From: Vicinamibacteria bacterium
Lineage (GTDB): Bacteria; Acidobacteriota; Vicinamibacteria; Marinacidobacterales; Marinacidobacteraceae
Reading direction: 5' to 3'
DNA length: 64,000 nt
Assembly: GCA_963668695.2 (NCBI GenBank)
Contig: CAXXLQ010000004.1
Span: 800,001 to 864,000, forward strand
Within the stretch, counting starts at the first letter, position 1. Every line of letters begins with the position of its first letter. This document shows, piece after piece, positions 6,971 through 64,000 of the stretch. A program made the translations under genes and the position numbers. The notes under the pieces are model-generated. The model had not been told where the DNA came from, searched no databases, and saw nothing but the letters and a program-made list of their open reading frames with translations.

Positions 6971-7018
6971 GCGATGCCGGTCTGAAGGCCCCTACCGGGA
7001 GAACCGGCCAGCGTTCCC
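6971..7018. repeat. REP-like palindrome carrying the 19-nt micro-insert
   Basis: GCGATGCCGGTCTGAAGG[CCCCTACCGGGAGAACCGG]CCAGCGTTCCC. Confidence 0.8.
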
Positions 7019-7159
7019 GCTGTCGCGCGCCATCTACGCAGGGGGCGATACGCCGTTCGCCCCGCTGCGCGGGGCGGTGTCGACCGGAGGTCCGGCGTTC
7101 CAAGCCGTCCCCGCCCTTCTGCTCGATCGGCGGCGCGCGGTCTCGCGGCCCTGTGGGCC

Positions 7160-7188
7160 GCGGTACCGGTCTGAAGACCGGCGCTCCC
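7160..7188. repeat. REP-like palindrome (empty form)
   Basis: CCGGTCTGAAGACCGGCGCTCCC hairpin; same family as 16402, 19598, 37389, 56186 and 61155. Confidence 0.75.
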
Positions 7189-7204
7189 TGCCCGGTTCCT
7201 ATAC

Positions 7205-8548
7205 TTGGCCGTCTTGGCTCGGGGACTGCGACGGGAGTTGCGTCTCGGCGACGCACTCTTCGTCAACATCGGGACGATCCTCGCGTCGGCGGCCTTCGTG
7301 GTTCCGGCCTACGTCATCGCCTCAACGGGTTCGGCGGGCGGCGCCGCGCTGATCTGGGTGGGAGCCGGAGCGATATCGCTCTGCGGAGCGTTCGCGATCG
7401 CCGAGCTCGCGGCGCTCTATCCGCACACCGGCGGCGAGTACGTCTATCTGGAACGGGCCTACCACCCCCTGGTCGGGTTCCTCTACGGCTGGAGCCTCTT
7501 CGCGGTCATCCAGACCGCCTCGATCGCCGCGGTCGCGGTCGTCTTCGTCGAGTACGGCGCCGAGTTCGTGCCGCTCAGCCCCGTTGCCGCGAAGGCGGCG
7601 GTGGTGGTGCTCATCCTCGGGCTCTCGCTTTGGAACTGCCGGAGCATTCGCGCCTCGGCCAGCACCCAGAACCTGACCACCATCGCCAAGCTGGTGATGG
7701 CGGGGGCGATCGTGGTGCTTTGCGTTTCCTTGGGCGACCAGTCGGTCGAGACCATCTCGCGGGCGCGGCTTCCGGTCGAGGGCTCGTGGGCGGCCCGCTG
7801 GGGCGCCGCCATGGTGGGGGCGCTGTGGGCCTACGACGGCTGGATCAGCATCACCTTCGTGGGCGGGGAGGTAAAAAACCCCCAGCGCTTCCTGCCGCGC
7901 GCCATCTCGCTCAGCCTGTTTCTGCTGATCGGTATCTATCTGCTGCTCAACTTCGCCTATCTGAAGGCGCTGCCGCTTGGGAGCTTCGTCGGGACCGAAA
8001 CCGTCGCGGCTGACGCCGCCGGACAGGCCGGGGGCCGGATCGGGGGTCAACTCGTCTCGCTCGCGGTGATGGTGTCGTGCTTCGCAGCGGCGAACGGCTT
8101 CATCTTCACGGGCGCCCGGGTCTACTACGCGATGGCGCGGGACGGGGCCTTTCTCCGCTCCTTCGCCCGGCTGAATTCGAGGGCGGTCCCGACGAACGCG
8201 ACGCTCGCCCAGGGGCTCTGGGCCGCGGCCATCGCGCTCACCGGCAGCTACGACCAGCTCTTCACCTACGTCGTGGTCGTTTCCTGGCTCTTCTACGGAC
8301 TCGGAAGCGCCGCGGTCTTCGTGCTGCGCTGGAAAAAGCCCGATCTCGAGCGGCCCTACCGGGCCTTCGGGTATCCACTCCTTCCGGCGGTCTTCACGAT
8401 CTTCTCGGCCGTTTTGCTGGTAAACACCCTCATCACGGACCCGCGCGACGCCCTGATCGGTCTGGGAATCACCGCGGCGGGCATTCCCGTATACCTTTAC
8501 TTCCGCAGGCAAAACGCGGGGCGCCCGGAAACGGACACCGCCGCGTAG
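7205..8548 (+). CDS. APC-family amino acid permease
   Basis: About 12 hydrophobic segments; AELAALYPHTGGEYVYL, WAYDGW, EVKNPQR, ARVYYAMARDG. Confidence 0.93.
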   Translation: MAVLARGLRRELRLGDALFVNIGTILASAAFVVPAYVIASTGSAGGAALIWVGAGAISLCGAFAIAELAALYPHTGGEYVYLERAYHPLVGFLYGWSLFAVIQTASIAAVAVVFVEYGAEFVPLSPVAAKAAVVVLILGLSLWNCRSIRASASTQNLTTIAKLVMAGAIVVLCVSLGDQSVETISRARLPVEGSWAARWGAAMVGALWAYDGWISITFVGGEVKNPQRFLPRAISLSLFLLIGIYLLLNFAYLKALPLGSFVGTETVAADAAGQAGGRIGGQLVSLAVMVSCFAAANGFIFTGARVYYAMARDGAFLRSFARLNSRAVPTNATLAQGLWAAAIALTGSYDQLFTYVVVVSWLFYGLGSAAVFVLRWKKPDLERPYRAFGYPLLPAVFTIFSAVLLVNTLITDPRDALIGLGITAAGIPVYLYFRRQNAGRPETDTAA

Positions 8549-8582
8549 CCGCCGGAACCCGTCCGGCACGGAGGACCACCCC

Positions 8583-11500
8583 ATGCGCAACCCGATGCGG
8601 CTTCAGGCCGCTCTCGCCCTTTCTTTCGCCCTCGGGCTCCCCGCGGCCGCGCTGGCCCAGCCGGCGCCCGACGAGCTCGGCGGCCTCAAATTCCGCCACA
8701 TCGGGCCCGTGGGCAACCGAGCCCTCTCGGTCGCCGGCATCCCGGGCAACCCCGACATCTACTACGCCGGGGCGGCCACCGGAGGAATCTGGAAGACCGA
8801 AGACGGGGGCATCAAGTGGCGCCCGGTGTTCGACGACCAGGATGTCCACGCCATCGGCGCGCTGGCCGTCTCCGAGTCCGACCCCAACATCGTGTGGGCC
8901 GGGACCGGCGAGACCTTCATCCGGGCCAACGTCTCCATCGGCATCGGAGTGTTCAAGTCCACCGACGCCGGCGAGACCTGGAAGCACATGGGCCTCGACG
9001 CGACCGCGCGGATCGGCCGGATCATCATCCATCCGACGAACCCGGACATCGTTTACGCGGCGTCGCTGGGACACGCCTACACCCCCCAGCCGGAGCGCGG
9101 CATCTACCGGACCATGGACGGGGGCGAGACCTGGGAACACGTCCTGTTCGTGGACGAAAACACCGGCGCCTCGGACCTGGTGATGGACCCGAACAACCCC
9201 CGGATCCTGTACGCCGGGATGTGGCAGCTCGAGTTGAAGACCTGGACCCGGGTGAGCGGCGGACCCGGAAGCGGCCTCCATATGAGCCGGGACGGCGGCG
9301 GCACCTGGACGAAGCTCGAAGGCAACGGCCTTCCGGAGCTGGAGGTGGGCAAGATCGCGCTTTGCATGAGCAAGTCGGACTCCCGGCGGGTGTTTGCGTT
9401 GATCGAGACGGCGGACGGCGTCTCCTACGCCGGCGAAGAAGCCGAGAGCGGAGAGCTGTGGGCCACGAGCGACGGCGCCAAGACCTGGACGCTCCAGACC
9501 CACAACCGGGACCTCGCGGGCAGAAACGCCTACTACTCCCGCTGCGGGGCGGCGCCGGACGACAAGGACGAGGCCTACTTCCTCACTTCGTCCTTCGCCT
9601 CGACCCTGGATGCCGGCAAGTCGCACCGGGTGCACGGCCGCGATGAGGCGCCGGGCTGGGACCACCACGACATCTGGATCGACCACACCGACGGCGACCG
9701 GATGGCGGTGGCGCACGACGGCGGGGTGTCCATCTCGCGAAACCGGGGCGCCTCGTGGTTCAAGATCCAGTTGCCGCTCGCCCAGATGTACCACGTGACG
9801 GTGGACAACGACATCCCCTACAACGTGCTCGGGAACCGGCAGGACGGCCCCTCCACCCGGGGGCCGAGCCGGGCGTTCACCGGCGGGTTCTTCGGCAGCG
9901 GCATTCCCCGGGGGATGTGGCACGGGGTCGGCGGGGGCGAGAGCGGCTTCGCGACTCCCGATCCGGAGGATCCGAACATCGTCTGGTCGAGCGCTTCCGG
10001 CGCCGGCGCCGCCGGCGGGATCGTGGTCCGCTACGACGAGCGCACCCGGCAGTTCCGCCAGCTCGAGGTCTGGCCGGAAAGCACGATGGGCTGGCCGGCC
10101 CAGGACCTGCGGTACCGGTTCCAGTGGGTCTTCCCGCTACTGATCTCGCCGCACGACCGCAACACCGTCTATGTCGGCAGCCAGCACGTCCACCGGACCA
10201 CCAACGGGGGCCAGAGCTGGGAGGAAGTCAGCCCCGATCTGACCACCAACGACAAGTCCCGCCAGACCATCTCCGGCGGCCTCACCCCGGACAACATCGG
10301 GGTGGAGTTCTGCTGCGTGATCTACGCGATCGACGAGAGCCCGGTTACCGAGGGCGTGATCTGGGCCGGCACCAACGACGGGATGATCCACCTGACCCGG
10401 GACGGCGGCGCCAACTGGACCGATGTGACCGCGAACGTGCCCGACATGCCGGTGGACGGGGTGGTGCGCAACATTGACGCCTCGAAGTGGGAGGCCGGCA
10501 AGGCGTACATGACCGTCGAAGCCCACCAGGTGGGCAACTTCGAGCCGTACGTGTACCGGACCGAAGACTTCGGAGAGTCGTGGACCAGGATCGTCAACGG
10601 CGTGGCGGACAGCCCGCTCAGCTACACCCGGAACGTGCGGGAGGATCCGGTGCGGCCCGGGCTCCTCTACCTCGGGACCGAGAACTTTCTCTACGTGAGC
10701 TTCGACGACGGGGACAACTGGCAGCGGCTCACGGGCGGGCTGCCGCCGAGCCCGATGTACTGGATCACGGTGCAGGAGCACTTCGGCGATCTGGTGGTCG
10801 GGACCTACGGACGCGGCTTCTGGATCATGGACGACATCTCGCCGCTCCAGCAGTGGACCGACGAGGTGGAGGCCGCGAGCGTCCACCTGTTCCAGCCCCG
10901 GGGGGCCTATCGGTTCCATTCCATCACCGCGCCCTTCGCCCAGTTCGACGACTGGTCCGCCGGCGAGAACCCCCCCTACGGCGCCCCGATCAGCTTCTGG
11001 CTGGACGAGGCGACCGAAGATGTTTCCATCGAGATCAAGAGCGCCGGCGGGGAGACGATCCGCACCCTCGAGACGGAGGGAGAAGTCGGCCTGAACCGGA
11101 TGTACTGGGATCTTCGGGAGGAAGCCTCGACCAAGGCGGTACTGCGGACGCAACCCCGCTTCGCCGACTGGGTGGACCTCGACGAGGAGCGGACCCGCGA
11201 GGGGCAGATCGGCCGGATCTCGATCCTCGCTCCGCCCGGTCAGTACACCGTGGCGCTGAAGGTCGGGGACACCGAGCAGACGGCGCCCCTCGAGGTGCGG
11301 AAGGACCCGAAGAGCGAGGGCTCGATGGAGGACATCGCCGCCCAGACCGCGCTGCTCCGCCTGCTACGCGCCGACCTCGAAACGGTGACCGGGATGGTGA
11401 ACGAGATCGAGTGGCTGCGCCGCCAGGTGCTCGATTTGAAGATGGTGGCCGAGGAGGCCGGGCGGGTCGAATCCATCGCCTCGGTGGTGGACGGGCTCGA

Positions 11501-11813
11501 CGGCTCGCTGCTCGCGGTGGAGGAACAGTTGATCCAGCTCCTCGTGACCGGAACCGGCCAGGACCGGATCCGTTGGCCGACGCAGCTTGCGGGCCGGATC
11601 ACCTACCTGGCCGGCGCGGTGGCGAGCAACGACTTCCCCCCGACCGACCAGATGCGGGAGGTCTATGACCGGCTCCGCGAGCGGGTGGAGGCCCGCACCG
11701 CGGAATTCGCCGACATCGTGGAGTCCGGCCTGACCAGCGTGAACAGCACCCTCGACGCCGAGGGGATGCCCGGCATCGTGCGGGTGGAAGGGAAGGAACC
11801 CGGCTCGCGCTAA
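8583..11813 (+). CDS. Secreted VPS10/BNR-repeat (sortilin-like) glycosyl hydrolase-like protein
   Basis: Signal peptide; many S/TxDxGxTW Asp-box repeats; FRHIGP N-terminus; C-terminal coiled region. Confidence 0.9.
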   Translation: MRNPMRLQAALALSFALGLPAAALAQPAPDELGGLKFRHIGPVGNRALSVAGIPGNPDIYYAGAATGGIWKTEDGGIKWRPVFDDQDVHAIGALAVSESDPNIVWAGTGETFIRANVSIGIGVFKSTDAGETWKHMGLDATARIGRIIIHPTNPDIVYAASLGHAYTPQPERGIYRTMDGGETWEHVLFVDENTGASDLVMDPNNPRILYAGMWQLELKTWTRVSGGPGSGLHMSRDGGGTWTKLEGNGLPELEVGKIALCMSKSDSRRVFALIETADGVSYAGEEAESGELWATSDGAKTWTLQTHNRDLAGRNAYYSRCGAAPDDKDEAYFLTSSFASTLDAGKSHRVHGRDEAPGWDHHDIWIDHTDGDRMAVAHDGGVSISRNRGASWFKIQLPLAQMYHVTVDNDIPYNVLGNRQDGPSTRGPSRAFTGGFFGSGIPRGMWHGVGGGESGFATPDPEDPNIVWSSASGAGAAGGIVVRYDERTRQFRQLEVWPESTMGWPAQDLRYRFQWVFPLLISPHDRNTVYVGSQHVHRTTNGGQSWEEVSPDLTTNDKSRQTISGGLTPDNIGVEFCCVIYAIDESPVTEGVIWAGTNDGMIHLTRDGGANWTDVTANVPDMPVDGVVRNIDASKWEAGKAYMTVEAHQVGNFEPYVYRTEDFGESWTRIVNGVADSPLSYTRNVREDPVRPGLLYLGTENFLYVSFDDGDNWQRLTGGLPPSPMYWITVQEHFGDLVVGTYGRGFWIMDDISPLQQWTDEVEAASVHLFQPRGAYRFHSITAPFAQFDDWSAGENPPYGAPISFWLDEATEDVSIEIKSAGGETIRTLETEGEVGLNRMYWDLREEASTKAVLRTQPRFADWVDLDEERTREGQIGRISILAPPGQYTVALKVGDTEQTAPLEVRKDPKSEGSMEDIAAQTALLRLLRADLETVTGMVNEIEWLRRQVLDLKMVAEEAGRVESIASVVDGLDGSLLAVEEQLIQLLVTGTGQDRIRWPTQLAGRITYLAGAVASNDFPPTDQMREVYDRLRERVEARTAEFADIVESGLTSVNSTLDAEGMPGIVRVEGKEPGSR

Positions 11814-11961
11814 AGCGTTGGGGCCCCGCCGCCTTCGCCGGGCTTGTGGCCGGCGGCGGGTCCCCGCCCGCGGTGCCCGCGCCCGTCAATCCCGGTCGGA
11901 GGGTGGGCCGTCTCCTGTGATTGCGAAATACTGCTACTGCTAGTGATGGCAGAACGCAGTC

Positions 11962-12198
11962 ATGCCAGTCCAGATCACCGTCCGCAACGTCCCCGAGTGG
12001 GTGCGCGACGAACTCGCCGCGCGCGCGGCGCGGAAGCGGCAGTCCATGCAGGAATTCCTGCGTTGCGAGCTGGAACGGATTGCGTCCTTTCCGTCCATTG
12101 CCGATTGGCTGGAAGGGGTCCGGGAGCGCGCGGAAGCGGCTGAAAGCCGGGTTCCCCCATCGGTCATCCTCGCGGCCCGCGACCGGGATCGGAGCTGA
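11962..12198 (+). CDS. FitA-like ribbon-helix-helix antitoxin (orphan, no toxin downstream)
   Basis: QITVRNVPEWVRDELAARAARKRQSMQEFL...RDRDRS. Confidence 0.8.
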   Translation: MPVQITVRNVPEWVRDELAARAARKRQSMQEFLRCELERIASFPSIADWLEGVRERAEAAESRVPPSVILAARDRDRS

Positions 12199-12243
12199 CC
12201 ACCGCCCCCCGACCTAACCGACGGGGGCGGCAAAATTCCCCAA

Positions 12244-13407
12244 TCAAGCGAGGAGTTCGCCCTCCCAGAGGGACCCCAGGAAATCCATGATCGGAAGAAT
12301 CCTGATCCCGTCCACGATCCGTGGCGCGGGCTCGCGGCACACCACGATCTGGCGTCGTAGCGGGGTCTCCACCGCCAGCCGGCGTAAGCCGTTCAGATCA
12401 CGCGACGTAACCGAACTGCTGGCCTTCACTTCGATCGCCACCTCGTCGCCGACCACAAAATCCACCTCGGAGCCGTCCTCCGTCCTCCAATAACTGAGCG
12501 GCCGCGGGTCGCGAGCGTAGGCGAGCCAGGCGCTCAACTCGCAGAAGACGAGCTGCTCAAGAGCAGGGCCGAACATCGGGCTGCCAGGCTGGATCTTTTC
12601 GACGGACGCCAGCGCGTTGGCGACGCCAACATCGAAGAAGAAGAGCTTGCGGCGGGAAACCGGCTTGCGGCGCGCCTTGCGGGGTGAGAACGGCGGCAGC
12701 AACGTACCGAGCAAGGTGTCCTCGATCACCTGGAAGTATTCCCGGACGGTTCGCGCCGGGACGGCCGCGTCGGACGCCAACCGCTCAAACACGATGGACT
12801 GCGCGTAGCTCGCGCCGGCAACGGTCAAGAACCGCGAGAAGGGTTCGACTCCGCGCACCAGACCCTCCGCCTGGATCTCCAGCCGCAGGTAGTTCCCGCA
12901 GTAGGCGCGGAGATCCTCCATCGGCTCATCTGAGAAATAGACGGAGGGAATCCCGCCGAAGTTGATCGCCCGCAGCAGGTCCCAATCGGGCACCTCTGCG
13001 GAAACGAACGGATACATACGCCGGGTCCGTGCCCGGCCACCCAACAGGTTCACTCCGCCGCGCCGCAGTTTGGCGGGGCTGCTCGCCGCGAGGACGAACT
13101 GGAAACCGCGGCTCTCGATCAGGTCGTGCACCTCGTCGAGCAGGCTCGGCAGCTTCTGGATTTCGTCGATGACCACCGGACCGGATTCGGCATTGGTGCT
13201 TGCCAGCTCCTGACGCAGACGCCCGGGCTCGCGGGAAAGGCGCAGAAACACATCCCCGTGAAGCAGGTTGAACCACGGCGAATCGGGGTAGCGCTGGCGG
13301 AGCCAGGTGGTTTTGCCCGTCTGGCGCGGCCCGAACAGGAAGACCGAGCGGCGGGACAAATCGCGCGCGAGGTCGAGGCGGCGAGGTAAGAGGGCGGAGT
13401 TCTTCAC
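12244..13407 (-). CDS. AAA_14 ATPase with DUF4143 / PD-(D/E)XK-like C-terminus
   Basis: GPRQTGKT Walker A, IDEIQK Walker B, KLFFFDVG, YWRT..GSEVDFV, AIEVK. Confidence 0.9.
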   Translation of the reverse strand: MKNSALLPRRLDLARDLSRRSVFLFGPRQTGKTTWLRQRYPDSPWFNLLHGDVFLRLSREPGRLRQELASTNAESGPVVIDEIQKLPSLLDEVHDLIESRGFQFVLAASSPAKLRRGGVNLLGGRARTRRMYPFVSAEVPDWDLLRAINFGGIPSVYFSDEPMEDLRAYCGNYLRLEIQAEGLVRGVEPFSRFLTVAGASYAQSIVFERLASDAAVPARTVREYFQVIEDTLLGTLLPPFSPRKARRKPVSRRKLFFFDVGVANALASVEKIQPGSPMFGPALEQLVFCELSAWLAYARDPRPLSYWRTEDGSEVDFVVGDEVAIEVKASSSVTSRDLNGLRRLAVETPLRRQIVVCREPAPRIVDGIRILPIMDFLGSLWEGELLA

Positions 13408-13537
13408 GAGAGTACTATTTTCAGCATAACATCTGCGGAAAATCCTGGTTTTCCAGCATCAGCAATGCGGATTTCGGGGAATTTGCTCGCGAAGGAAGCA
13501 TCCCGGGACCGTCGAGGGGCAGGACTTCCCGGGTGGC

Positions 13538-14317: not shown

Positions 14318-14382
14318 GGCTCGGAAACGCTCGCAGCGAGTCTATGCGCGCGGGAGCTGAGGGCCCCTACCGGGAGAACCGG

Positions 14383-33035: not shown

Positions 33036-33085
33036 GGGGACCGCCGGCCAGTCCTCCCGGTGGGGGCCTTCAGGTCGGCATCGCG
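33036..33085. repeat. REP-like palindrome carrying the 19-nt micro-insert
   Basis: GGGACCGCCGG[CCAGTCCTCCCGGTGGGGG]CCTTCAGGTCGGCATCGC. Confidence 0.8.
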
Positions 33086-37033: not shown

Positions 37034-37247
37034 CAGCCTGTGGATAAAGTGGTGTGAGCGCCGAGAGCGGCCAGTCCTCCCGGTGGGGGCGAGGCGCCCG
37101 GCTGACAAGGCGCGCGAGGGAGGAGCCCCCACCGGGAGAACTGGCCCGTGTATTTCGACCGAAGCGCAACGATGAGCGACGCGAAGCGGAGTGTTTCAGC
37201 CGGGATGCATCGCCGGTCGAACGCCGCATGACTTTGTCCACAGGCTG
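37034..37247 (+). mobile_element. MITE copy 1
   Basis: TIRs CAGCCTGTGGATAAAGT / ACTTTGTCCACAGGCTG; CTAG on both sides. Confidence 0.9.
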
Positions 37248-42002: not shown

Positions 42003-42400
42003 CAGCCGGTGGTGGAACCCGCGTGAGCGCCGAGGCCGGGGAGGCGCCCGGCTGACAAGGCGCGTGAGGGAGGAGCCCCCACCGGGAGAACTGGCCCGGG
42101 TGTATTTCGACCGAAACGCAACGATGAGCGGCGCGCAGCGACGCGGGCAACAGCCTGTGGGGGAACCCGGGTGAGCGACGAGGTCGGTGAGGCGCCCGGC
42201 TGGCGAGGCGCGTGAGGGAGGAATACCGGGTGTATTTCGACCGAAACGCAACGACGAGCGGCGCGCAGCGACGCGGTTCAGCCGGGATGGATCGCCGGCC
42301 GAACGCCGCCCGGGTTTCCTTACAGGCTGTTTGGCCGGGATGGATCGCCGGCCGAGCCCCCACCGGGAGAACTGGGCCGCGTGGGTTTCGCTACCGGTTG
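42003..42400 (+). mobile_element. MITE copy 2, containing nested copy 3 (42151-42329)
   Basis: Outer CAGCCGGTGG...CTACCGGTTG flanked by TTAA/TTAA. Inner CAGCCTGTGGGGGAACCCGGG...CCCGGGTTTCCTTACAGGCTG repeats the same internal body. Confidence 0.85.
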
Positions 42401-52672: not shown

Positions 52673-52720
52673 AGGGACCGCCGGCCAGTTCTCCCGGTGG
52701 GGGCTTCACACCGGCATCGC
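52673..52720. repeat. REP-like palindrome carrying the 19-nt micro-insert
   Basis: GGGACCGCCGG[CCAGTTCTCCCGGTGGGGG]CTTCACACCGGCATCGC. Confidence 0.8.
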
Positions 52721-54483: not shown

Positions 54484-54717
54484 CAGCCTGTGGATAAAGT
54501 GGTGTGAGCGCCGAGAACGGCCAGTCCTCCCGGTGGGGGCGAGGCGCCCGGCTGACAAGGCGCGCGAGGGAGGAGCCCCCACCGGGAGAACTGGCCCGAG
54601 TGTATTTCGACCGAAGCGCAACGATGAGCGACGCGAAGCGGAGTGTTTCAGCCGGGATGCATCGCCGGTCGAGCCCCCACCGGGAGAACTGGGCCGCATG
54701 ACTTTGTCCACAGGCTG
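54484..54717 (+). mobile_element. MITE copy 4
   Basis: Same TIRs; flanks TTAA (upstream stop codon) / TTGA; three 19-nt inserts. Confidence 0.9.
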
Positions 54718-54960: not shown

Positions 54961-55773
54961 ATGCGACATACCACCACTGCACTGGACCCCGTAGTCCCCG
55001 GCCCGCGCCGCCGCCTCGTCGCCGTTCTACGCGAGGCCGGCGACGTCGTTCGCATCGACGACGTCGTGAAGGCGCTTGATATCTCCCGTGCGGACGCCGC
55101 CAAACTGCTCTCGCGGTGGGTGAAGCAGGCGTGGCTCCGGCGGGTCGGTCGCGGCGCCTACCTTCCGGCCTCACTCACCACGCTCGGCAACGTCCACGTT
55201 TTGGACGATCCGTGGATCCTGGTGCCGGCACTGTTCGATCCTGCCTACATCGGCGGTCGCACCGCCGCCGAGCACTGGGATCTCACCAAGCAGATCTTCC
55301 GGGACATTGTGGTCATGACGACGCAGACCGTCCGGGCGAAAACGCAGCATCGGCACGGCGCCATTTTGAGCCTCACCCACATCAGCCCGCAGAAAATCTT
55401 CGGCACCACGACCGTGTGGCGCGGCAGGAGCAGGATCGCCGTCTCCGACGTTCACCGGACCATTGTGGACATCGTGGCGGATCCGGCACTCGGTGGGGGA
55501 ATCCAACAGGTAGCGGATTGCCTGTCGGTGTATCTGAAGTCGAGCGCCCGTAACGACGACCTCCTTCTCGACTACGCGGCACGGCTCGGGAACGGTGCGA
55601 TCTTCAAGCGGCTGGGCTTTCTGGCCGAACGCGATCCGGCGGGTTCGGCGCTCGTAACACCCTGTCGAGAGCGGCTCACGATGGGGTACGCCCGGCTCGA
55701 CTCCGCACTCGAAACTCCACGCCTCATCACTCGGTGGCGGCTGTGGGTCCCTAGCAGCCTGTGGATAAAGTGA
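54961..55773 (+). CDS. Type IV TA AbiEi-family antitoxin; last codons displaced by a MITE
   Basis: N-terminal wHTH (LSRWVKQAWLRRVGRGAY), AYIGGRTAAEHWDLT, SDVHRTIVD, KRLGFL, WRLWVP. Confidence 0.87.
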   Translation: MRHTTTALDPVVPGPRRRLVAVLREAGDVVRIDDVVKALDISRADAAKLLSRWVKQAWLRRVGRGAYLPASLTTLGNVHVLDDPWILVPALFDPAYIGGRTAAEHWDLTKQIFRDIVVMTTQTVRAKTQHRHGAILSLTHISPQKIFGTTTVWRGRSRIAVSDVHRTIVDIVADPALGGGIQQVADCLSVYLKSSARNDDLLLDYAARLGNGAIFKRLGFLAERDPAGSALVTPCRERLTMGYARLDSALETPRLITRWRLWVPSSLWIK

Positions 55774-56059
55774 CGTGAGCACCGAGGCCGGTGAGGCGCC
55801 CGGCTGACAAGGCGCGCGAGGGAGGAGCCCCCACCGGGAGAACTGGCCCGAGTGTATTTCGACCGATGTGCAACGCAGAGCGTCGCGAAGCGCCAGTTCT
55901 CCCGGTGGGGGGGCGGTTCAGCCGGGATGCATCGCCGGTCGCTTCCGGAGCGGGGCGCCAGCACCGCGGAGACCCCGGAGCGGAAGGGACGGGGGGCGGG
56001 GCTACCCGACCCCCATCCCTTCCGGCTCGGGAATGCCGCGTGACTTTGTCCACGGGCTG
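55755..56059 (+). mobile_element. MITE copy 5, with an extra ~90-bp internal hairpin insert
   Basis: TIRs with CTAG/CTAA flanks; extra segment 55941-56031. Confidence 0.88.
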
Positions 56060-56214: not shown

Positions 56215-56237
56215 TGGCCAGCTCGACGTGACGCTGG

Positions 56238-56621: not shown

Positions 56622-56715
56622 GGACGATCAGTCTAGGGCAGCCGCAGGCTTCCACCTGACATCTGTAACGGACACTCGTGCGGTATCGTCGCGCGCGGCG
56701 ACGCGGCACACTCAG

Positions 56716-56912
56716 CAGCCGGTGAACAAAGTCACGCGGTATTCGCCCGGCGATGCATCCCGGCTGAAACGCGCTGCTTCGCATCGCTCATCGTTGCGCT
56801 TCGGTCGAAATACACTCGGGCCAGTTCTCCCGGTGGGGGCTCCTCCCTCGCGCGCCTTGTCAGCCGGGCGCCTCACCGGCCTCGGTACTCACGTCACTTT
56901 ATCCACAGGCTG
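56716..56912 (-). mobile_element. MITE copy 6
   Basis: CAGCCGGTGAACAAAGT...ACTTTATCCACAGGCTG; flanks TCAG/CTAA. Confidence 0.88.
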
Positions 56913-56926
56913 CTAAGGAGGGGCTC

Positions 56927-58036: not shown

Positions 58037-59136
58037 GCGGCCGGAAGCCGCGCCGATGGCTGGCGGCCGCCTGCGCGACCGTGGCGCTGGCGGCGGGAGG
58101 GTGCGGCGGGGATCCCTCATCCGGGTCCCTGACCGTCGTCTCCTGGGGCGGGGCCTACGCGCGGGCCGTCACCAAGGCGCACTACGAACCGTTCGAAGCC
58201 GCCACCGGGATGACTCTCGGCCGGGAGGACTACAACGGCGGGCTCGCCGAGATCCGCACCCAGGTGGATACCGGGAACGTCCACTGGGACGTCGTGGACC
58301 TCGAGATGTTCGACGCCGTCCGCGGATGCGACGAGGGGCTCCTCGAGCTGATTCCGGATGACCTGACGGCGCCCGGCGCCGACGGCTCCCCCGCCGCCGA
58401 GGACTTCCGGCCCGAAACACTCACCGACTGCGGGGTCGGCACGGCCTTCTATTCCACGGTCGTCGCCTACCACCCGGACCGCTTCTCCGGCGAGAAGCCG
58501 GCGACGATCGGGGACTTCTTCGATCTGGAACGGTTTCCGGGACGCCGCGGCATGCGCCGCAGCCCCCTCGTGAACCTGGAGTTCGCGCTGATGGCCGACG
58601 GGGTCGCGACGGACGAGGTGTACGCCGTGCTCGACACCGATGAAGGCATGAACCGGGCGCTCAGGAAGCTGGACACGATCAAGGACGAAGTCGTCTGGTG
58701 GGAGGCCGGCGCCCAGCCGCCGCAAATGCTGGCCGACGCCGAGGTGGTGATGTCCACTGCCTACAACGGGCGGATCTTCAACGCCCAGGTCCTCGAGGAC
58801 CAGCCATTCGTCATCATCTGGGACGGACAGGTGCTCGAGATCGGCCAGACCGGAATCGTCGCCGGGACCCCCAACCTGACGGAGGCGCTCGCGTTCCTCC
58901 GGTTCTCGACGTCGGCGGAGTCCATGGCAAAGCTCACCGGGGAGATCGCCTACAGCCCCACCCGGCGGTCGGCGCAACCGCTCGTAACCACCCACCGCGA
59001 AACCGGGGTCCCGATGCTGCCCCATCTGCCCACCAGCCCGCAGAACGTCGGACGGGTCCTGACGAGCGACACGCTCTGGTGGAGCGACAACCTCGACGAG
59101 GTGAACGAGCGCTTCAGCGCCTGGCTGGCGCGATGA
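58033..59136 (+). CDS. Polyamine-type ABC substrate-binding lipoprotein
   Basis: AGGC lipobox, VVSWGGAY, WDVVD, LEFALMADGV, AYNGRIF. Confidence 0.92.
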   Translation: MSGRKPRRWLAAACATVALAAGGCGGDPSSGSLTVVSWGGAYARAVTKAHYEPFEAATGMTLGREDYNGGLAEIRTQVDTGNVHWDVVDLEMFDAVRGCDEGLLELIPDDLTAPGADGSPAAEDFRPETLTDCGVGTAFYSTVVAYHPDRFSGEKPATIGDFFDLERFPGRRGMRRSPLVNLEFALMADGVATDEVYAVLDTDEGMNRALRKLDTIKDEVVWWEAGAQPPQMLADAEVVMSTAYNGRIFNAQVLEDQPFVIIWDGQVLEIGQTGIVAGTPNLTEALAFLRFSTSAESMAKLTGEIAYSPTRRSAQPLVTTHRETGVPMLPHLPTSPQNVGRVLTSDTLWWSDNLDEVNERFSAWLAR

Positions 59137-60344
59137 CGGGAAAACCGGGAGTGGCGCCGCCGGCGCGAGCCCGGCTGCGGGCGGCGGGACTCGCCCTGCC
59201 GCTCGTCGCCTTCGTGGGCATCTCCTTCCTCTTCCCGCTCGGGACGATGCTCGCCCGCAGCGTCCATGACCCGGTGGTCGCCGACGCCCTCCCGGAAACA
59301 CTCGCTCTCCTCGAGGAATGGGACGGGGAGACCCTGCCCGGGGAACCGGTGTTCGCGACCGCCGCCCGGGAACTCGAAAGCGCGCTCGAAGGCCGGATGG
59401 CGGGCAGGCTGGGCGGACGGGTGAACCGGGTCGCGAGCGGGATGCGGAGCGTGATCATGCGCGGCGCCCGGGCAGCGGCGGAGGCGCCGGCAGCCACCTC
59501 TCGGGACACCCTCATCGGCGGGCACCCGGCGTGGGGCGAGCCGGCGACCTGGCGGGCCGTACGCACCGCCGGCGAGCGCTTCACCCTCCGCCACTACCTG
59601 CGGGCCCTCGATCTCGGGCGGGGTCCCGACGGGAGCATCGTCCGGCAACCGGAGGAACTCCGCATCTACGTCCCGTTGCTCCTCCGGACGCTGATGGTCA
59701 GCGGCGCGGTCACCCTGCTCTGCCTGCTGCTCGGCTACCCGATCGCCCATCTCATCGCGAGCTCCCCGCCGCGGCGCGCCCGCTGGCTGCTGCTCCTGGT
59801 GCTGGTGCCGTTTTGGACCTCGCTGCTGATCCGCACCACCGCCTGGATCGTCCTGCTCCAGACCCACGGGGTCCTGAACAGCCTGTTGGTGGCCCTCGGC
59901 CTGGTCGCCGACGACGGCCGGATCGCGATGATCTACAACATGACCGGCACGCTGGTCGCGATGACCCACGTGCTGCTGCCGTTCATGGTGTTGCCGCTCT
60001 ATTCGGTGATGCGCACCATCCCGCCGCACTTCCTGCGGGCGGCCACCTCGCTCGGCGCGAACCGCCGTCAGGCTTTCTTCCGTGTCTACTGGCCGCTCAC
60101 CCTGCCCGGCACCGCGGCGGGCGCCTTGCTGGTGTTCATCCTGTCGATCGGCTACTACATCACCCCGGCGCTCGTGGGCGGGGCGAGCGGCCAGTTGTTC
60201 TCCAACATGATCGCCTTCCACATGCAGACCTCCCTCAACTGGGGGCTCGCCGCGGCGCTCGGCGGCATCCTGTTCGTGGTGGTGGGCGCGCTCTACGTGG
60301 TCTACGACCGGCTGGTGGGCGCCTCCAGCCTGCGGCTCGGGTAG
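59133..60344 (+). CDS. ABC permease (PotB-like)
   Basis: LLLGYPIA, PFWTSLLIR, AATSLGA, YYITPALVGG. Confidence 0.93.
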   Translation: MTGKPGVAPPARARLRAAGLALPLVAFVGISFLFPLGTMLARSVHDPVVADALPETLALLEEWDGETLPGEPVFATAARELESALEGRMAGRLGGRVNRVASGMRSVIMRGARAAAEAPAATSRDTLIGGHPAWGEPATWRAVRTAGERFTLRHYLRALDLGRGPDGSIVRQPEELRIYVPLLLRTLMVSGAVTLLCLLLGYPIAHLIASSPPRRARWLLLLVLVPFWTSLLIRTTAWIVLLQTHGVLNSLLVALGLVADDGRIAMIYNMTGTLVAMTHVLLPFMVLPLYSVMRTIPPHFLRAATSLGANRRQAFFRVYWPLTLPGTAAGALLVFILSIGYYITPALVGGASGQLFSNMIAFHMQTSLNWGLAAALGGILFVVVGALYVVYDRLVGASSLRLG

Positions 60345-60348
60345 CGAA

Positions 60349-61155
60349 ATGCGGGACGGCGCGGCCTCCCGGGTGGTCTACCTGGCGTTTTGCGTCTTCG
60401 TCTTCGTCTTCCTGGTCGCCCCGATCCTGGTGATCATTCCGCTCAGCTTCAACGCCGAGCCCTATTTCACCTTCACGGAGGGCATGCTCCGGCTGGACCC
60501 CGACGCCTGGTCCCTCCGCTGGTACGAGGCTCTGGTGGAAGACGCCCGCTGGAGCCGGGCGCTCGCCAACAGCCTGGGGATCGGGTTCGCCGCCGCCCTG
60601 CTGGCGACGGTGCTGGGAACCGTCGCGGCGCTCGGGCTCTCGAGCCCGGCGATGCCCGCGCGCCGCCTCGTGACCGGGATCCTGATCTCGCCGATGGTGA
60701 TCCCGGTAATCATCGCGGCGGCGGGGATGTTCTTCTTCTACTCGGACCTCCGCCTCACCCAGTCGCACCTGGGGCTGATCCTCGCCCACGCGGCGCTCGG
60801 CACCCCGTTCGTGGTGATCACGGTGACCGCGACACTTTCCGGATTCGACCGCAACCTGGTCCGCGCCTCCCAGAGCCTCGGTGCGGGCCCCCTCACCACC
60901 TTTCGCCGGGTGCAGTTGCCGCTGATCGCGCCGGGGGTCCTTTCGGGGGCCCTCTTCGCCTTCGCCGCCTCGTTCGACGAGGTGGTCGTGGTGCTTTTCA
61001 TGGGCGGGCTGAACCAGCGGACCATTCCCCGCCAGATGTGGTCGGGGATCCGCGAGGAGATCAGCCCCACCATCCTGGCGGCGGCGACCTTCCTGATCGC
61101 GTTCGCGCTGCTCTTCCTGTTCGCGGTGGAGCGGCTCCGCAGCCGGACTCGCTAG
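60349..61155 (+). CDS. ABC permease (PotC-like)
   Basis: SLRWY, ASQSLGA, SFDEVVV. Confidence 0.93.
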   Translation: MRDGAASRVVYLAFCVFVFVFLVAPILVIIPLSFNAEPYFTFTEGMLRLDPDAWSLRWYEALVEDARWSRALANSLGIGFAAALLATVLGTVAALGLSSPAMPARRLVTGILISPMVIPVIIAAAGMFFFYSDLRLTQSHLGLILAHAALGTPFVVITVTATLSGFDRNLVRASQSLGAGPLTTFRRVQLPLIAPGVLSGALFAFAASFDEVVVVLFMGGLNQRTIPRQMWSGIREEISPTILAAATFLIAFALLFLFAVERLRSRTR

Positions 61156-61242
61156 GAGCGCCGGCCTTCAGGCCGGCATCGCGGCCCACCGGCTAGGAAC
61201 GCTGGCCAGTTCTCCCGGTGGGGGCCTTCAGGCCGGCATCGC
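61155..61242. repeat. Two tandem REP-like palindromes: one empty, one with the 19-nt insert
   Basis: GGAGCGCCGG^CCTTCAGGCCGGCATCGC versus GGAACGCTGG[CCAGTTCTCCCGGTGGGGG]CCTTCAGGCCGGCATCGC. Confidence 0.9.
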
Positions 61243-61367
61243 TCCGCGAAGCGACACTCCCATAGCTGCTTACCCTGGATGGCACCGTCCGAAGGGGAAC
61301 GCCGGCCGCTGGCGTGCATCGCGAGGCAGCGCGAAACCGAGGCCGATGATGCTGCGCCCTGTCCAAG

Positions 61368-61757
61368 TTAGTGCGAGCGTCTCAGCTCGAAGCCCCGGGC
61401 GAGCACGTAGGCGATCAGCGCCACCACGAAGACCACCAGCAGCATCCAGGCGATCCCCTGGAGCGTCTCGATGACGGTCCGATAGACCTCGAGCGTCCAG
61501 CGCTCCGCGTTGAGAACCAGGATCTCGTCGTCCTTGCCGGGGGCCGAGATGTAGCGCTCCAGCTCGCGGATGCGAACGCCCGCCGAGATGCCGACCACGT
61601 ACGCCGCGAACTTGACGTAACGATGCCAGGCCCCGCTCAACTCCTCCGCCACGATCCGCTGCAGGATGGAGGCGATGGGACGGTCGAAGAGCCGCACCGC
61701 CCCGAAGGACACCGCCAGCGCGATGAGGAACGTGACGATCAGCAGCGTGAAGAACAT
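61368..61757 (-). CDS. Hypothetical membrane protein (3 TM)
   Basis: Three hydrophobic segments; host-like codon usage. Confidence 0.75.
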   Translation of the reverse strand: MFFTLLIVTFLIALAVSFGAVRLFDRPIASILQRIVAEELSGAWHRYVKFAAYVVGISAGVRIRELERYISAPGKDDEILVLNAERWTLEVYRTVIETLQGIAWMLLVVFVVALIAYVLARGFELRRSH

Positions 61758-61796
61758 GGCAACTCGAACCTGGCGACGCGGACTCGATTGGACCGC

Positions 61797-63053
61797 CTAA
61801 TCGCCGGGGTTGTGGATGCGGCCACCCTTCATGACCATCCGCACCCGCTGGAGGGCTCCGATATCGCTCGCCGGATCGCCGTCCACCACCACCAGATCGG
61901 CGGCGTAACCCTCGGCAACCGTCCCGATCTCATCCCCAAGTCCCAGCGACGCGGCAGCCATCGAGGTCAGCCCGACGACGGCCTGTCCCGGGTCCTGACC
62001 GCCCTGCTCGACCCGGGCGACCGCCTCGCGGGCGTTCTGCCCGTGGGCGCCGGCCACCGCGTCGGTCCCGAAGACGATCTTCAGTCCCTCGGTGGCGAGC
62101 GCCATGCCGAAGGTCTCCATCGCCCGCACCCGTCCGGACTCCATGGCGGTGAAGCCTTCCTCGGTGTAGTTCCCGATCCCCAGGTAGCGGTCCTTGTTCT
62201 CGAAGTAGTTGGCGAAGATGAGGTAGGTGTTCGGGTCGTAAAGGGTGCCGTTCGCGGCCATCAGGTCGAGCGTTTCCTGATCGAGCAGCGCGCCGTGCTC
62301 GATCGTGGTGCAGCCCGCCCGGGATGCCCGGCTCGCGCTCTCCGGCCCGTGGGCGTGGACGAGCGTCCTGAGTCCGCGCTCCGTGGCCGCCCCGCAGGCG
62401 GCGTCGAGTTCTTCCTGTGAAAGCGTGGGGCCGCCCCCCACCCGGATGCTCTCCGAGGCGAAGATCTTGATGGCGTCCGCCCCGGCGTCGGCCAGGCGGT
62501 GCACTTCGGCGGTCAGTTCCTCCGCGCCACCGGTGCGGGCGGAGAGCTGGCCGAGCGAGGTGACGATCCGGGGACCGGGGACCGTTCCGCGCGCCACCGC
62601 ATCGCGCACCGGACCATCCACCGCCGAACCGAGGCTCTGGACGGTGGTGAAGCCGGCCTCGAGCATCCGGATGCCGTTTTCCACCGCGTGCAGGGCGGCG
62701 GTCTCGGGCGCGGCGCCCCGGGCCAGCTTGCCGTCCTCGCCGAAGTGCCAGTCCAGGTGGACATGGGTGTCAATCAGGCCGGGGAGGATCGTGCCGCCGG
62801 GGAAGTCGAGGCGCTGGCCGGCGGGAAGGTCGGAAGCCGCGGCCACCGCGACGATCCGCCCGTCCCGGACCACCACCCCGTGGTTCTCGAGGACACCGCC
62901 GCGTCCGTCGAGCACCCGGTCCGCCGTGAGCACCACGGTCCCGTCGTCGTTCATCTCGGGACCCGCGCCACCACCCCCGCCGCAGGCCGCAAAGAGCACT
63001 GCCACAGCGGCCGTCAGGAAATAAGACGAACGAAAAAGGGAATGCCCATTCAT
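61797..63053 (-). CDS. Amidohydrolase family protein (Xaa-Pro dipeptidase-like), lipoprotein
   Basis: PGLIDTHVH, AGFTTV, IKIFAS, HAH, IEHG, FGTD, ADLVVVDGDP. Confidence 0.92.
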   Translation of the reverse strand: MNGHSLFRSSYFLTAAVAVLFAACGGGGGAGPEMNDDGTVVLTADRVLDGRGGVLENHGVVVRDGRIVAVAAASDLPAGQRLDFPGGTILPGLIDTHVHLDWHFGEDGKLARGAAPETAALHAVENGIRMLEAGFTTVQSLGSAVDGPVRDAVARGTVPGPRIVTSLGQLSARTGGAEELTAEVHRLADAGADAIKIFASESIRVGGGPTLSQEELDAACGAATERGLRTLVHAHGPESASRASRAGCTTIEHGALLDQETLDLMAANGTLYDPNTYLIFANYFENKDRYLGIGNYTEEGFTAMESGRVRAMETFGMALATEGLKIVFGTDAVAGAHGQNAREAVARVEQGGQDPGQAVVGLTSMAAASLGLGDEIGTVAEGYAADLVVVDGDPASDIGALQRVRMVMKGGRIHNPGD

Positions 63054-63171
63054 GAGCAAGAGTGTATGTTCGGGCCTTCCTCACTCCTGGAAGGAACCGG
63101 GATCCCAAGTCTCCCGCAGGGAATCGGTCACGAGAACGCTATCCGGTTCTAGCGGACGGTGTTCGAGCCAT

Positions 63172-64000
63172 CTATGCCGCCTGGTTGCGGATGCCGCTGC
63201 GGCGGCTCGCCCGGTTCAACCGCTGCGCGAAATAACGGACGAATACGCTGTTCTCTGGATAAGCGCCGGGATCAGCCCAGAACGCTCCGAGACGCCCTAC
63301 AAGCCCGCAGATCCAATCGGCGGCCTGCACGGTCTGCTAGCCAGCCTGTGGTGAAACCCAGGCGGCGTTCGAGCGGCGATGCATCCCGCCTGAACCGCCC
63401 CCCCACCGGGAGAACTGGCGCTTTGCGGCGCTCTGCGTTGCGTTTCGGTCGAAATACACCCGGGCCAGTTCTCCCGGTGGGGGCTCCTCCCTCACGCGCC
63501 TTGTCAGCCGGACCCCCACCGGGAGAACTGGGCCTCGCCCCCACCGGGAGAACTGGCCGCTCTCGGCGCTCACCCGGGTTCCACCACAGGCTGCTAGCGG
63601 TGGCTTTCCGCCTGGAGCGGGGGCTCGATGAGCTGACGGCGGGGCTCGTCTCCCCCATACATCCTTTGGGACGCCGCTGTGAGCAGGGCTGAACGCTGGT
63701 CATGCTCATCAAGAACGAGAAGAAAGTTGCGCGTAGGTTCACTTCCCTCGGTGCAGAATTCGTCCAGACGCTTGATCGCCTCGACGAAAACCGCGGTGTA
63801 GAGCGCGTTGGCGTTGTGTTGATCCGGTGAGTGGGTCTTCTTGGTCCCAACATAGAACACGAAACCGCCGATCGTGGTGATCTTGTTCAGGAAGCGGTTC
63901 GTGAACGTCCTGAGTTCGCGGTAGCGGCCTACGTTGGTCACCGTGTAGAGGCTCGAGCCCTTCTTTTCCCAAACTGCTGCATCTCGAATGACAGAAGTTC
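63172..64000 (-). pseudogene. DUF3800-family protein split by a MITE (5' end off window)
   Basis: WEKKGSSLYT...LVLDEH...IEPPLQAESHR* | QTVQAADWICGLVGRLG...SGIRNQAA*; QxAD motif. Confidence 0.8.
63342..63593 (-). mobile_element. MITE copy 7 with four 19-nt inserts
   Basis: CAGCCTGTGGTGAAACCC...GGGTTCCACCACAGGCTG; CTAG on both sides. Confidence 0.9.

What the first reader, a model, noticed from the sequence alone, without database searches (positions are those of the whole stretch)
6988..63556. A 19-nt 'micro-insert' (CCCCCACCGGGAGAACTGG) that colonises other repeats
Seen: 19 copies by manual count, at about 6989, 14364, 33048, 37071, 37126, 42076, 42357, 52685, 54521, 54576, 54674, 55828, 55893, 56821, 61206, 63400, 63465, 63513 and 63538. 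They occur on both strands with 0-2 mismatches. None is inside an intact CDS; all are inside a REP or MITE. Filled and empty sites sit side by side: at 61155-61242 one REP reads GG^CC and its neighbour has exactly the 19-mer at that point. In the MITE family it occupies at least five different positions in both orientations, each absent from some sibling copy, with 0-1 nt junction change and no clear target duplication. Copying of the host repeats alone cannot produce multiple independent positions. It is too short for normal TIR-based transposition. Established knowledge: 21-27-nt small dispersed repeats with insertion behaviour are known from cyanobacteria. Inference: an independently mobile ultra-short element that prefers hairpin DNA, perhaps written by a REP-acting HUH/RAYT enzyme, a recombinase or an RT encoded elsewhere.
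Basis: partly seen in the sequence, partly recalled or inferred. Interest (0 to 1): 0.85.

Follow-up and report, generated by a model that had tools for sequence, protein, structure and literature searches.

The report
Nineteen-base repeat that IS110 elements target
A sharply bounded 19-base sequence sits about 1,600 times inside other small repeats of this sponge-associated acidobacterial genome, is present or absent at matching sites in related species, and is the programmed landing site of RNA-guided IS110 insertion sequences.

Summary
All 19 copies lie at the stated coordinates, where chance expects 0. The genome holds 1,613 copies with up to 2 mismatches, 1,123 of them exact, with sharp edges.

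The motif occurs in 20 of 24 other genomes of the same Vicinamibacteria family. It was found in none of 16 genomes from two sister families.

It sits in REP stems at GR^CC and at nine positions of one MITE family. Filled and empty alleles occur among paralogs and at orthologous loci.

Most copies are not independent insertions:
- 1,168 of 1,462 blocks ride on the MITE family.
- Filled alleles carry fixed junction changes: ATA, AC or A replaced, with a G brought in.
- The MITE family is a short-patch mosaic.

My reading is a few primary insertions, followed by hitch-hiking and homology-driven transfer.

New here: IS110-family elements in three relatives sit at one fixed point inside the 19-mer, and their bridge-RNA guide segments match it. 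A second, 150-380-nt element splits the 19-mer at another point.

No reverse transcriptase, Y1/RAYT or resolvase gene was found. The enzyme that makes primary insertions remains unknown.

The parts
6989..7007 (+). 19-mer copy (2 mismatches, CCCCTACC..AACCGG variant) in a REP stem
14364..14382 (+). 19-mer copy (same 2-mismatch variant) in a REP. The orthologous site in relative G004 is filled with the same variant, so this is an old inherited copy.
33048..33066 (-). 19-mer copy (GAGGACTGG variant) in a REP. The orthologous REP is filled in G004 and empty in G008.
37034..37247 (+). MITE copy (approximate ends, terminal repeat CAGCCTGTGGATAAAG..) carrying 19-mers at 37071-37089 (-) and 37126-37144 (+). 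Its third site (consensus position 153) is empty and reads CGAACGCC.
42003..42400 (+). Composite of nested or truncated MITE copies with 19-mers at 42076-42094 (+) and 42357-42375 (+). Empty sites (GGAATACC, CGAACGCC) lie in the inner copy. The whole block is absent from the orthologous spot in G001 and G008.
52685..52703 (-). 19-mer copy in a REP stem. Short-read contigs of four runs end inside it.
54484..54717 (+). MITE copy with three 19-mers: 54521-54539 (-), 54576-54594 (+) and 54674-54692 (+). Within the MITE (54484-54717) the orthologous copy in G001 matches at every aligned column except that the last two sites are empty.
55755..55945 (+). Truncated MITE copy (approximate ends) with 19-mers at 55828-55846 (+) and 55893-55911 (-)
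56716..56912 (-). MITE copy (reverse orientation) with one 19-mer at 56821-56839 (-)
61146..61180 (.). Empty REP hairpin (GCCGGCC TGAA GGCCGGC). The GG^CC point is unoccupied.
61206..61224 (-). 19-mer copy splitting the stem of the neighbouring REP at the same GG^CC point
63342..63593 (-). MITE copy with four 19-mers: 63400-63418 (+), 63465-63483 (-), 63513-63531 (+) and 63538-63556 (+)

Best explanation
The 19-mer (effectively G + CCCCCACCGGGAGAACTGG + SCC) is a real, family-wide dispersed micro-repeat. It is of the kind described as 'small dispersed repeats' in Nostocaceae.

Inferred history:
1. The block entered a limited number of host repeats by a non-homologous, sequence-directed event, without target duplication. 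The hosts were REP stems at GR^CC and about nine points of one MITE family.
2. It then reached about 1,600 copies mainly by riding on the transposition of its hosts.
3. It also spread by short-patch homologous transfer (gene conversion) between host copies, which carries the adjacent bases along.

Shown here: the 19-mer is the programmed landing site of a group of IS110-family (bridge-RNA) insertion sequences. These enter at CCCCC^(C)ACCGGG. A separate 150-380-nt non-coding element enters at GAGAA^CTGG.

The enzyme that makes the primary insertions is not identified.
For: Real and bounded:
- 1,613 copies, 1,123 of them exact.
- Information content drops sharply outside -1..+21.
- Fewer than one chance hit is expected (plus my own estimate).
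- 67 of 1,613 lie fully inside a crude coding mask, against 636 expected at random.

Family-wide:
- Found in 21 of 41 genomes, including all 15 other genomes of the genus, with 7 to about 1,526 copies each.
- Found in 5 of 16 genera. A reversed-pattern control gave 0 everywhere.
- In other genera it lies in their own REP types.

Several primary entries:
- 144 flank-context clusters.
- Nine MITE positions in both orientations.
- Target consensus from 133 context representatives is RGG^CCSG.

Change at orthologous loci:
- Within the MITE (window 54484-54717) every aligned column matches between G000 and G001 except the two filled/empty sites.
- REPs filled in G001 are empty in G008 or G004, with conserved unique flanks.

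Secondary spread by hosts and homology:
- 1,168 of 1,462 blocks lie in MITE-family DNA.
- Filled and empty alleles are two fixed states. Site 73 has 299 filled (AG[19]CC) against 267 empty (AATAC). Site 153 has 264 filled against 176 empty (AACGC).
- 67 of 74 filled REPs have T opposite G. Among 1,265 empties only 60 do, while 265 are T-A and 151 are C-G.
- MITE SNPs have mean r2 of about 0.03 beyond 15 nt, while junction bases are tied to occupancy at r2 0.9-0.97 at the three sites that carry a fixed junction change (43-, 73+, 153+).

Landing site for IS110:
- 13 of 15 IS110 copies examined in G014, G009 and G004 have both junctions inside a 19-mer..(C/G)CCCC | IS | CACCGGGAGAACTGG. 14 of 15 have the right junction. 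Host flanks differ between copies.
- Uninterrupted sibling sites exist in the same genomes: 9, 17 and 136.
- In an alignment of five IS110 left ends, the variable segment after the conserved ATCCGCCGGGAG equals each element's own left target flank. The segments are GAGCCCC, GGCCCC, CCGGAGG and TGGAGCGC.
- A second variable segment is the reverse complement of each element's right flank.
- This is the LTG/RTG logic described for IS621 (PMC11208160, passages read).
Against: - No enzyme for the primary insertion was found.
- Primary events are inferred from distinct contexts, not observed.
- Nearly all sites are inside repeats. It therefore cannot be excluded that even the cross-family jumps happened only a handful of times in the deep past.
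- Gene conversion between 35-60-nt REPs is assumed, not shown.
- The fixed junction replacements could instead be a deterministic product of an unknown insertion enzyme.
- The read data could not test present-day activity, because contigs break at the repeats.
- The coding mask is crude and flags only 39% of the genome.
Confidence: 0.55

Rival explanations
1. Fully independent mobility. Hundreds of separate insertions of the 19-mer are made by a trans-acting enzyme that recognises hairpins, and each event deterministically replaces 0-3 loop or stem bases.
For: - Occupancy of six MITE sites is nearly independent. 35 of 64 combinations occur, and 13 of 15 site pairs show all four gametes.
- Two sites differ in an orthologous MITE whose other MITE columns all match.
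- There are 76 singleton contexts.
- Copies average 99.3% identity per position, while MITE copies differ pairwise by 16%. This comparison is biased, because copies were selected at up to 2 mismatches.
Against: - MITE SNPs are equally unlinked, so independence of sites does not require insertion.
- Filled alleles are uniform in their flanking changes.
- Almost no copies lie in unique DNA.
- No candidate HUH, RT or serine recombinase was found.
Confidence: 0.2
2. The 19-mer is itself a minimal non-autonomous IS110-type element: a CC core plus 17 nt. It would be moved as a single strand or small single-stranded circle by a bridge recombinase. Alternatively it is planted at new GG^CC sites together with a nested IS that later leaves.
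For: - Both outer junctions recreate GG|CC.
- The 19-mer-targeting IS110s appear to use a C/CC core.
- IS110 genes occur in every closed genome with 78 or more copies, and in no closed genome with a known count of 0 or 1. These genomes are related, so they are not independent observations.
- Recent preprints report single-strand excision, single-stranded circles, top-strand insertion and hairpin-gated targets for IS110 elements (abstracts read).
Against: - None of the five bridge-RNA regions examined has a donor segment matching the 19-mer ends. Their donor segments match their own IS ends.
- G019, a single-contig genome, has 58 copies and no IS110 hit.
- G000 has the most copies but only one IS110, and that one is aimed at a different REP site.
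- The net 18-nt gains with replaced bases do not fit a simple core exchange.
Confidence: 0.12
3. The 19-mer is a scar or extreme deletion derivative (left end 15 nt plus right end 4 nt) of the 150-380-nt element that shares its outer ends.
For: - About 29 copies in G000 begin CCCCCACCGGGAGAA-ACCC.. and end ..CAGCAACTGG at the same host sites. AAC microhomology is present at both ends.
Against: - The long form was found only in genus g1, in 10 of 15 genomes. It was absent from 12 genomes of other genera.
- Further patterns gave nothing in G018, G019, G023, G016 and G043, although G018 has 255 19-mers.
- The expected product would carry GAGAAACTGG, which was seen once.
- Identical deletions at many independent sites are unparsimonious.
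Confidence: 0.05
4. The 19-mer is a functional sequence motif, such as an uptake signal or a protein-binding site, that multiplies by selection on point mutations rather than by insertion.
For: High sequence conservation across genera.
Against: - Alleles differ by 18-19 nt in length.
- Copy number ranges from 0 to about 1,500 within one family.
- The motif is strongly depleted from coding DNA.
Confidence: 0.03

Closest known systems
Small dispersed repeats (SDR4-6) of Nostocaceae cyanobacteria (Elhai et al. 2008, Genome Res 18:1484). The paper is not held in the library. I rely on recall plus passages citing it in PMC5861425, PMC3116915 and PMC2884548.
   Same: - Very short (about 20 nt) and high in copy number.
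- Sharply bounded.
- Found inside other repeats.
- Filled and empty sites occur.
- No target duplication.
- Entry at a short palindrome: HIP1 for SDR5, GR^CC here.
- No encoded enzyme, and mechanism unknown.
   Different: - 19 nt against 21-27 nt.
- A different phylum. PMC5861425 states that no SDR-like repeat was found outside Nostocaceae among cyanobacteria.
- Not a hairpin itself.
- Most copies here are explained by hitch-hiking and homologous transfer.
- Here it is also the target of IS110 elements.
- Sequence relatedness to SDRs could not be tested.
Natural target sites of IS110-family bridge recombinases, for example the REP target of IS621 (PMC11208160, passages read) and the hairpin-gated REP target of ISPpu10 (preprint 10.64898/2026.03.19.712850, abstract read)
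   Same: - A multi-copy intergenic sequence is used as the landing site.
- Insertion point and orientation are fixed.
- A short core is repeated at both junctions.
- Guide segments in the left-end ncRNA match the left flank and complement the right flank.
   Different: - The target is not a REP hairpin. It is a 19-nt block that is itself inserted into REPs and MITEs.
- The core appears to be C/CC rather than CT.
- The guide includes 2-3 nt of whatever host flank precedes the block (GAG in G014 and G009, GG in G004).
REP/REPIN elements with RAYT transposases (PMC3116915)
   Same: Short, intergenic, very abundant and associated with hairpins.
   Different: - The 19-mer does not fold.
- It splits REP stems rather than being one.
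- No Y1/RAYT gene was found.

Membership tests
Cyanobacterial small dispersed repeats (SDR) | Unit length 21-27 nt | tested here: not met
   The conserved block is 19 nt, or 20-22 nt with semi-conserved flank bases. The tandem period is 18 nt.
Cyanobacterial small dispersed repeats (SDR) | Dispersed, high copy, sharply bounded, nested in other repeats | tested here: met
Cyanobacterial small dispersed repeats (SDR) | Presence or absence at orthologous sites, without target duplication | tested here: met
Cyanobacterial small dispersed repeats (SDR) | Sequence relatedness to SDR1-8, and occurrence in Nostocaceae | not testable with these tools
The host here is Acidobacteriota (Vicinamibacteria) by record titles.
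REP / REPIN-RAYT | The unit is an imperfect palindrome forming a hairpin | tested here: not met
   The 19-mer alone folds at -1.4 kcal/mol, z +0.41.
REP / REPIN-RAYT | Cognate Y1 (RAYT) transposase gene in the genome | tested here: not met
   PF01797 gave 0 hits at E<=0.001 in G000 (91.7% complete); the control genomes gave hits.
MITE | Terminal inverted repeats, target-site duplication, length of 50 nt or more | tested here: not met
   No inverted ends, no duplication, 19 nt.
IS110 (bridge-RNA) target site | IS110-family recombinase elements inserted at one fixed position and orientation in the sequence | tested here: met
   13 of 15 copies have both junctions and 14 of 15 the right junction, across three genomes. 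Both Pfam domains were checked only for G000's own IS; the others were found by PF01548 alone.
IS110 (bridge-RNA) target site | Guide segments of the left-end ncRNA co-vary with the target flanks | tested here: met
   Five elements with three different targets. The variable segment equals the left flank, and a second segment is the reverse complement of the right flank. The RNA itself and its fold were not verified experimentally.
IS110 (bridge-RNA) target site | Recombination shown to depend on the recombinase and bridge RNA | not testable with these tools
   Needs an assay.
Minimal non-autonomous IS110-type element | A bridge RNA whose donor loop matches the element's joined ends | tested here: not met
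   In the five left ends aligned, the donor-side segments match their own IS ends (GTGGAAAGT, GTATAGG), not AACTGG/CCCACC. Other genomes were not searched.
DNA uptake sequence | Arises by point mutation in place, is common in genes, and has equal-length alleles | tested here: not met
   Alleles differ by 18-19 nt in length. 67 of 1,613 copies lie in the coding mask against 636 expected.

The most novel reading that the evidence does not exclude
The 19-mer is the smallest known RNA-guided mobile unit. It would be a CC core plus 17 nt, transferred as a single strand (or as a 19-nt single-stranded circle) by an IS110-type bridge recombinase into GR^CC sites of extruded hairpins. On this reading, IS110 elements in this family both create and then occupy their own landing pads.
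Probability: 0.12. Interest if true: 0.9.

Novelty: new variant of a known kind. Interest (0 to 1): 0.62.

Why it matters
Very short 'mobile' repeats have been known since 2008 only from one cyanobacterial family, and no mechanism has been found for them. This is a second, unrelated case, in uncultured sponge-associated Acidobacteriota.

This case has features that make the question testable:
- Many related genomes, with copy numbers from 0 to about 1,500.
- Clean orthologous filled and empty sites.
- A direct tie to IS110 bridge recombinases, whose guide RNAs are visibly programmed for the 19-mer.

It also gives a natural example of bridge RNAs that have retargeted among three different repeats within one bacterial family.

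It carries a caution as well. Apparent independent insertions inside repeat families can be produced by short-patch exchange between copies.

Tried and rejected
Replichore strand bias. The listing for G018 looked one-stranded. The reverse-complement query showed this was an artefact of listing order. G000 shows no bias, either overall or for non-MITE copies.

Autonomous parent of the 150-380-nt element. A search with its 37-aa reading frame across the genus gave only chance open frames. No Rfam family matched nine copies of it or the G000 IS110 region at E<=1 beyond two weak chance hits.

Plasmid collection. No match to a MITE copy.

Read evidence for present-day insertion or loss. Four runs holding 83-84% of the sampled words were laid, but their contigs stop at the repeats, so no indels could be scored. 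This says nothing for or against activity.

TnpB. One hit, below the curated cut-off.

G000's own IS110. It is aimed at a different REP site (ccggaggtc^ggcg), and its ends are unrelated to the 19-mer.

HaeIII-like 'restriction fragment' idea (a CC..GG block between two GG^CC cuts). Considered and dropped, because it gives no reason why only this fragment would move.

Literature. The 19-mer, its complement and its 15-nt right part occur in no held paper, apart from one unrelated zebrafish paper that contains the 15-mer. 'Marinacidobacterium' occurs in none. The Elhai 2008 paper could not be read. Supplements were not consulted.

Full report
**Observation**

The pattern CCCCCACCGGGAGAACTGG, with up to 2 mismatches, occurs 19 times in the window at exactly the coordinates given. 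No shuffle produced any match.

The window is G000:C4:800001-864000. The assembly is 4.10 Mb in 4 contigs with 67.5% G+C.

Genome-wide there are 1,613 copies, 1,123 of them exact. The main variants are GCCCC.. (161 copies) and ..GAGGACTGG (149 copies).

Aligning all copies shows sharp edges. Positions 1-19 are 87-100% conserved. Position -1 is G in 88% of copies, +20 is S, +21 is C in 92% and +22 is C in 73%. Beyond that, only host-repeat signal remains.

A crude GC3 mask that flags 39% of the genome as coding contains 67 copies fully. Random placement would give 636.

**Hosts and alleles**

Window contexts are REP hairpins and copies of one roughly 190-nt MITE.

Clustering 20+20-nt flanks gives 144 contexts, 76 of them singletons. 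Almost all the singletons are again REP-like or MITE-like.

After computationally removing the 19-mers, 1,168 of 1,462 blocks fall in MITE-family BLAST hits.

In 303 near-full-length MITE copies (of 551 loci) the block occupies nine consensus positions in fixed orientations.

Tandem blocks with an 18-nt period exist: 140 dimers, 2 trimers, 1 tetramer and 1 pentamer.

Scanning for both flanks at any spacing shows two-state alleles:
- At MITE position 73, 299 copies read AG[19]CC and 267 read AATAC.
- At position 153, 264 copies read AG[19]GC and 176 read AACGC.
- In REPs the spacing is 0 or 19, and empties mostly read GA^CC while filled sites read GG[19]CC.

The event therefore looks like a patch replacement (ATA, AC or A swapped for G+19), with no target duplication.

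The empty REP folds as a hairpin. The filled REP does not, and the 19-mer alone does not fold.

**Distribution**

With up to 1 mismatch the motif is present in 21 of 41 genomes searched. This includes all 15 other genomes of the genus (7 to about 740 copies; G000 has 1,526) and 20 of 24 other genomes of the family. It was found in none of 16 genomes from two other families of the order. A reversed-pattern control gave 0.

Two stray single hits fell elsewhere.

In other genera the block lies in the same MITE family or in those genera's own REP types. In G018 it is part of a 44-nt tandem unit.

**Orthologous change**

Three relatives are syntenic with the window at 86-95% identity.

The MITE at window 54484-54717 and its ortholog in G001 match at every aligned column of the MITE except at positions 73 and 153. 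There G000 is filled and G001 shows the canonical empty states. The unique flanks carry several substitutions.

REPs filled in G001 are empty in G008 or G004, with conserved flanks. Some are clean gccgg^ccgg sites. Others read gccgA^cc against gccgG[19]cc, with the pairing T kept on the other arm.

The REP at 33048 is filled in G000 and G004 and empty in G008. The 2-mismatch copy at 14364 is shared with G004.

**How much is independent insertion?**

Occupancy at six MITE sites is almost independent. 35 of 64 patterns occur, and 13 of 15 site pairs show all four gametes.

That alone would suggest recurrent insertion. However, common SNPs in the same alignment are equally unlinked beyond about 15 nt (mean r2 about 0.03). 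Junction bases are tied to occupancy at r2 0.9-0.97 at the three sites with a fixed junction change (43-, 73+, 153+). The family is therefore a short-patch mosaic, and exchange between copies can shuffle the block.

In REPs of the CCGG-x..x'-CCGG type, 67 of 74 filled sites have T opposite G. Among 1,265 empties only 60 have this state, against 265 T-A and 151 C-G.

Filled REPs are therefore not a sample of pre-existing G^CC sites. Either the G arrives with the block each time, or the filled alleles share one origin and spread by homology or by REP multiplication.

I take the second option as more economical. It still requires a set of primary, non-homologous entries: different REP families, nine MITE points and other genera's REPs. 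The common target of these entries is RGG^CCSG.

**Enzymes**

In G000 I found:
- no Y1/RAYT hit;
- no RVT_1 hit;
- no Resolvase hit;
- one TnpB-like hit, below the cut-off;
- one IS110-family gene with both Pfam domains.

That IS sits in a REP at ccggaggtc^ggcg, with ends unrelated to the 19-mer.

**IS110 link**

Across the family, IS110 genes occur in 11 of 28 genomes.

I examined 15 copies from G014, G009, G004 and G001:
- 13 have both junctions inside a 19-mer. The left flank ends (C/G)CCCC, the IS begins TATA(C/G)GATC.., the IS ends ..TGGA(A/G)AGTC, and the right flank begins CACCGGGAGAACTGG followed by differing REP or MITE flanks.
- One further copy shows the right junction only, because my left-end match failed.
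- The G001 copy has other ends.

One host 19-mer also carries the long element (L170). Uninterrupted sites of the same kind exist in those genomes: 9, 17 and 136.

G000 keeps only right-end remnants of such an IS, at C4:311977, C4:793864 and a duplicate on C1.

I aligned the left ends of five IS110s (G014, G009, G004, G000 and G018). They share a scaffold, and directly after ATCCGCCGGGAG comes a variable segment that equals each element's own left target flank:
- GAGCCCC for G014 and G009;
- GGCCCC for G004;
- CCGGAGG for G000;
- TGGAGCGC for G018.

A second variable segment is the reverse complement of the right flank: CGGTGG for the 19-mer group, CGCCGG for G000 and GTCCGG for G018 (with flanks).

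This is the guide logic reported for IS621 (PMC11208160, passages read). IS110 copies of this group in the three relatives examined (G004, G009 and G014) are therefore aimed at the 19-mer plus 2-3 bases of its usual left neighbour.

**A second tenant**

About 29-30 copies of a 150-380-nt non-coding element in G000 start with the first 15 nt of the 19-mer and end with its last bases. They lie at the usual host sites and often hold an internal REP that itself carries a 19-mer.

This element occurs in 10 of 15 genomes of the genus. It was not found in 12 genomes of other genera or with looser patterns in five of them, although G018 has 255 19-mers.

I therefore read it as an element that inserts into the 19-mer at GAGAA^CTGG, not as the 19-mer's parent.

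**Comparison with known systems**

The closest known kind is the small dispersed repeats of Nostocaceae. Like those, the block is tiny, bounded and nested, shows filled and empty sites, lacks a target duplication and enters at a short palindrome. A later paper states that no SDR-like repeat was seen outside Nostocaceae among cyanobacteria (PMC5861425, passage read). The original paper could not be read.

The block is not a REP, a MITE or an uptake sequence (see the membership table).

Recent preprints report that IS110 elements excise one strand as a circle, insert mainly the top strand, and may need a target hairpin (abstracts read). This keeps open the bold reading that the 19-mer is a minimal IS110-type unit. 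However, none of the five bridge-RNA regions examined has a donor segment that matches the 19-mer's ends.

**Verdict**

- The idea of a unit that colonises other repeats is partly right.
- Most copies owe their existence to host repeats and to homologous exchange.
- The writer of the primary insertions is unknown.
- The role of the 19-mer as a programmed IS110 landing site is new and well supported at the sequence level.

**Limits**

- Kin are not independent observations.
- The coding mask is crude.
- Contig C1 largely duplicates part of C4.
- No experiment or read-level test of activity was possible.

Noticed in passing
G000:C4, e.g. 2362062-2362290, 125229-125458, 413399-413626, 2157839-2158065, 716611-716900 (outside the window): A 150-380-nt non-coding element, about 29-30 copies, splits the 19-mer at GAGAA^CTGG. 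It often contains a REP that itself holds a 19-mer. It is found only in the window's genus. No Rfam match and no autonomous copy was found.
   Followed up: partly
G000:C4:482107-483880 (outside the window): This is the genome's only IS110-family element, inserted in a REP at ccggaggtc^ggcg. Its left-end RNA region carries CCGGAGG, which matches that target.
   Followed up: yes
G000:C4:793864-793902 and C4:311977-312015: Solo right-end remnants (about 35 nt) of the 19-mer-targeting IS110 abut a MITE end. The first lies 6 kb upstream of the window.
   Followed up: partly
G000 contig C1 (144 kb) versus C4:~311-414 kb: Every element found on C1 has an identical twin in C4 in inverted order, which suggests a duplicated assembly segment or haplotig. 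The genome's contamination estimate is 9.3%.
   Followed up: no
MITE family genome-wide (303 aligned copies): 49 of about 180 alignment columns are common two-state polymorphisms in near linkage equilibrium beyond about 15 nt. This mosaic structure is unusual for a MITE family.
   Followed up: partly
L139 (G018:C1:~62,050-62,400): In another genus the 19-mer is embedded in a 44-nt unit (part of a REP plus linker plus the 19-mer) that forms a three-unit tandem array.
   Followed up: no
L044 and L069: Single exact 19-mer hits occur in a 6-kb contig binned as Gammaproteobacteria and in a 253-kb Acidimicrobiaceae contig. These could be mis-binning, transfer or chance.
   Followed up: no
window 42003-42400: A roughly 400-nt nest of MITE copies is inserted at a TTAA. 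It is wholly absent from the orthologous site in G001 and G008, and replaced by a different MITE-containing insert in G004.
   Followed up: partly
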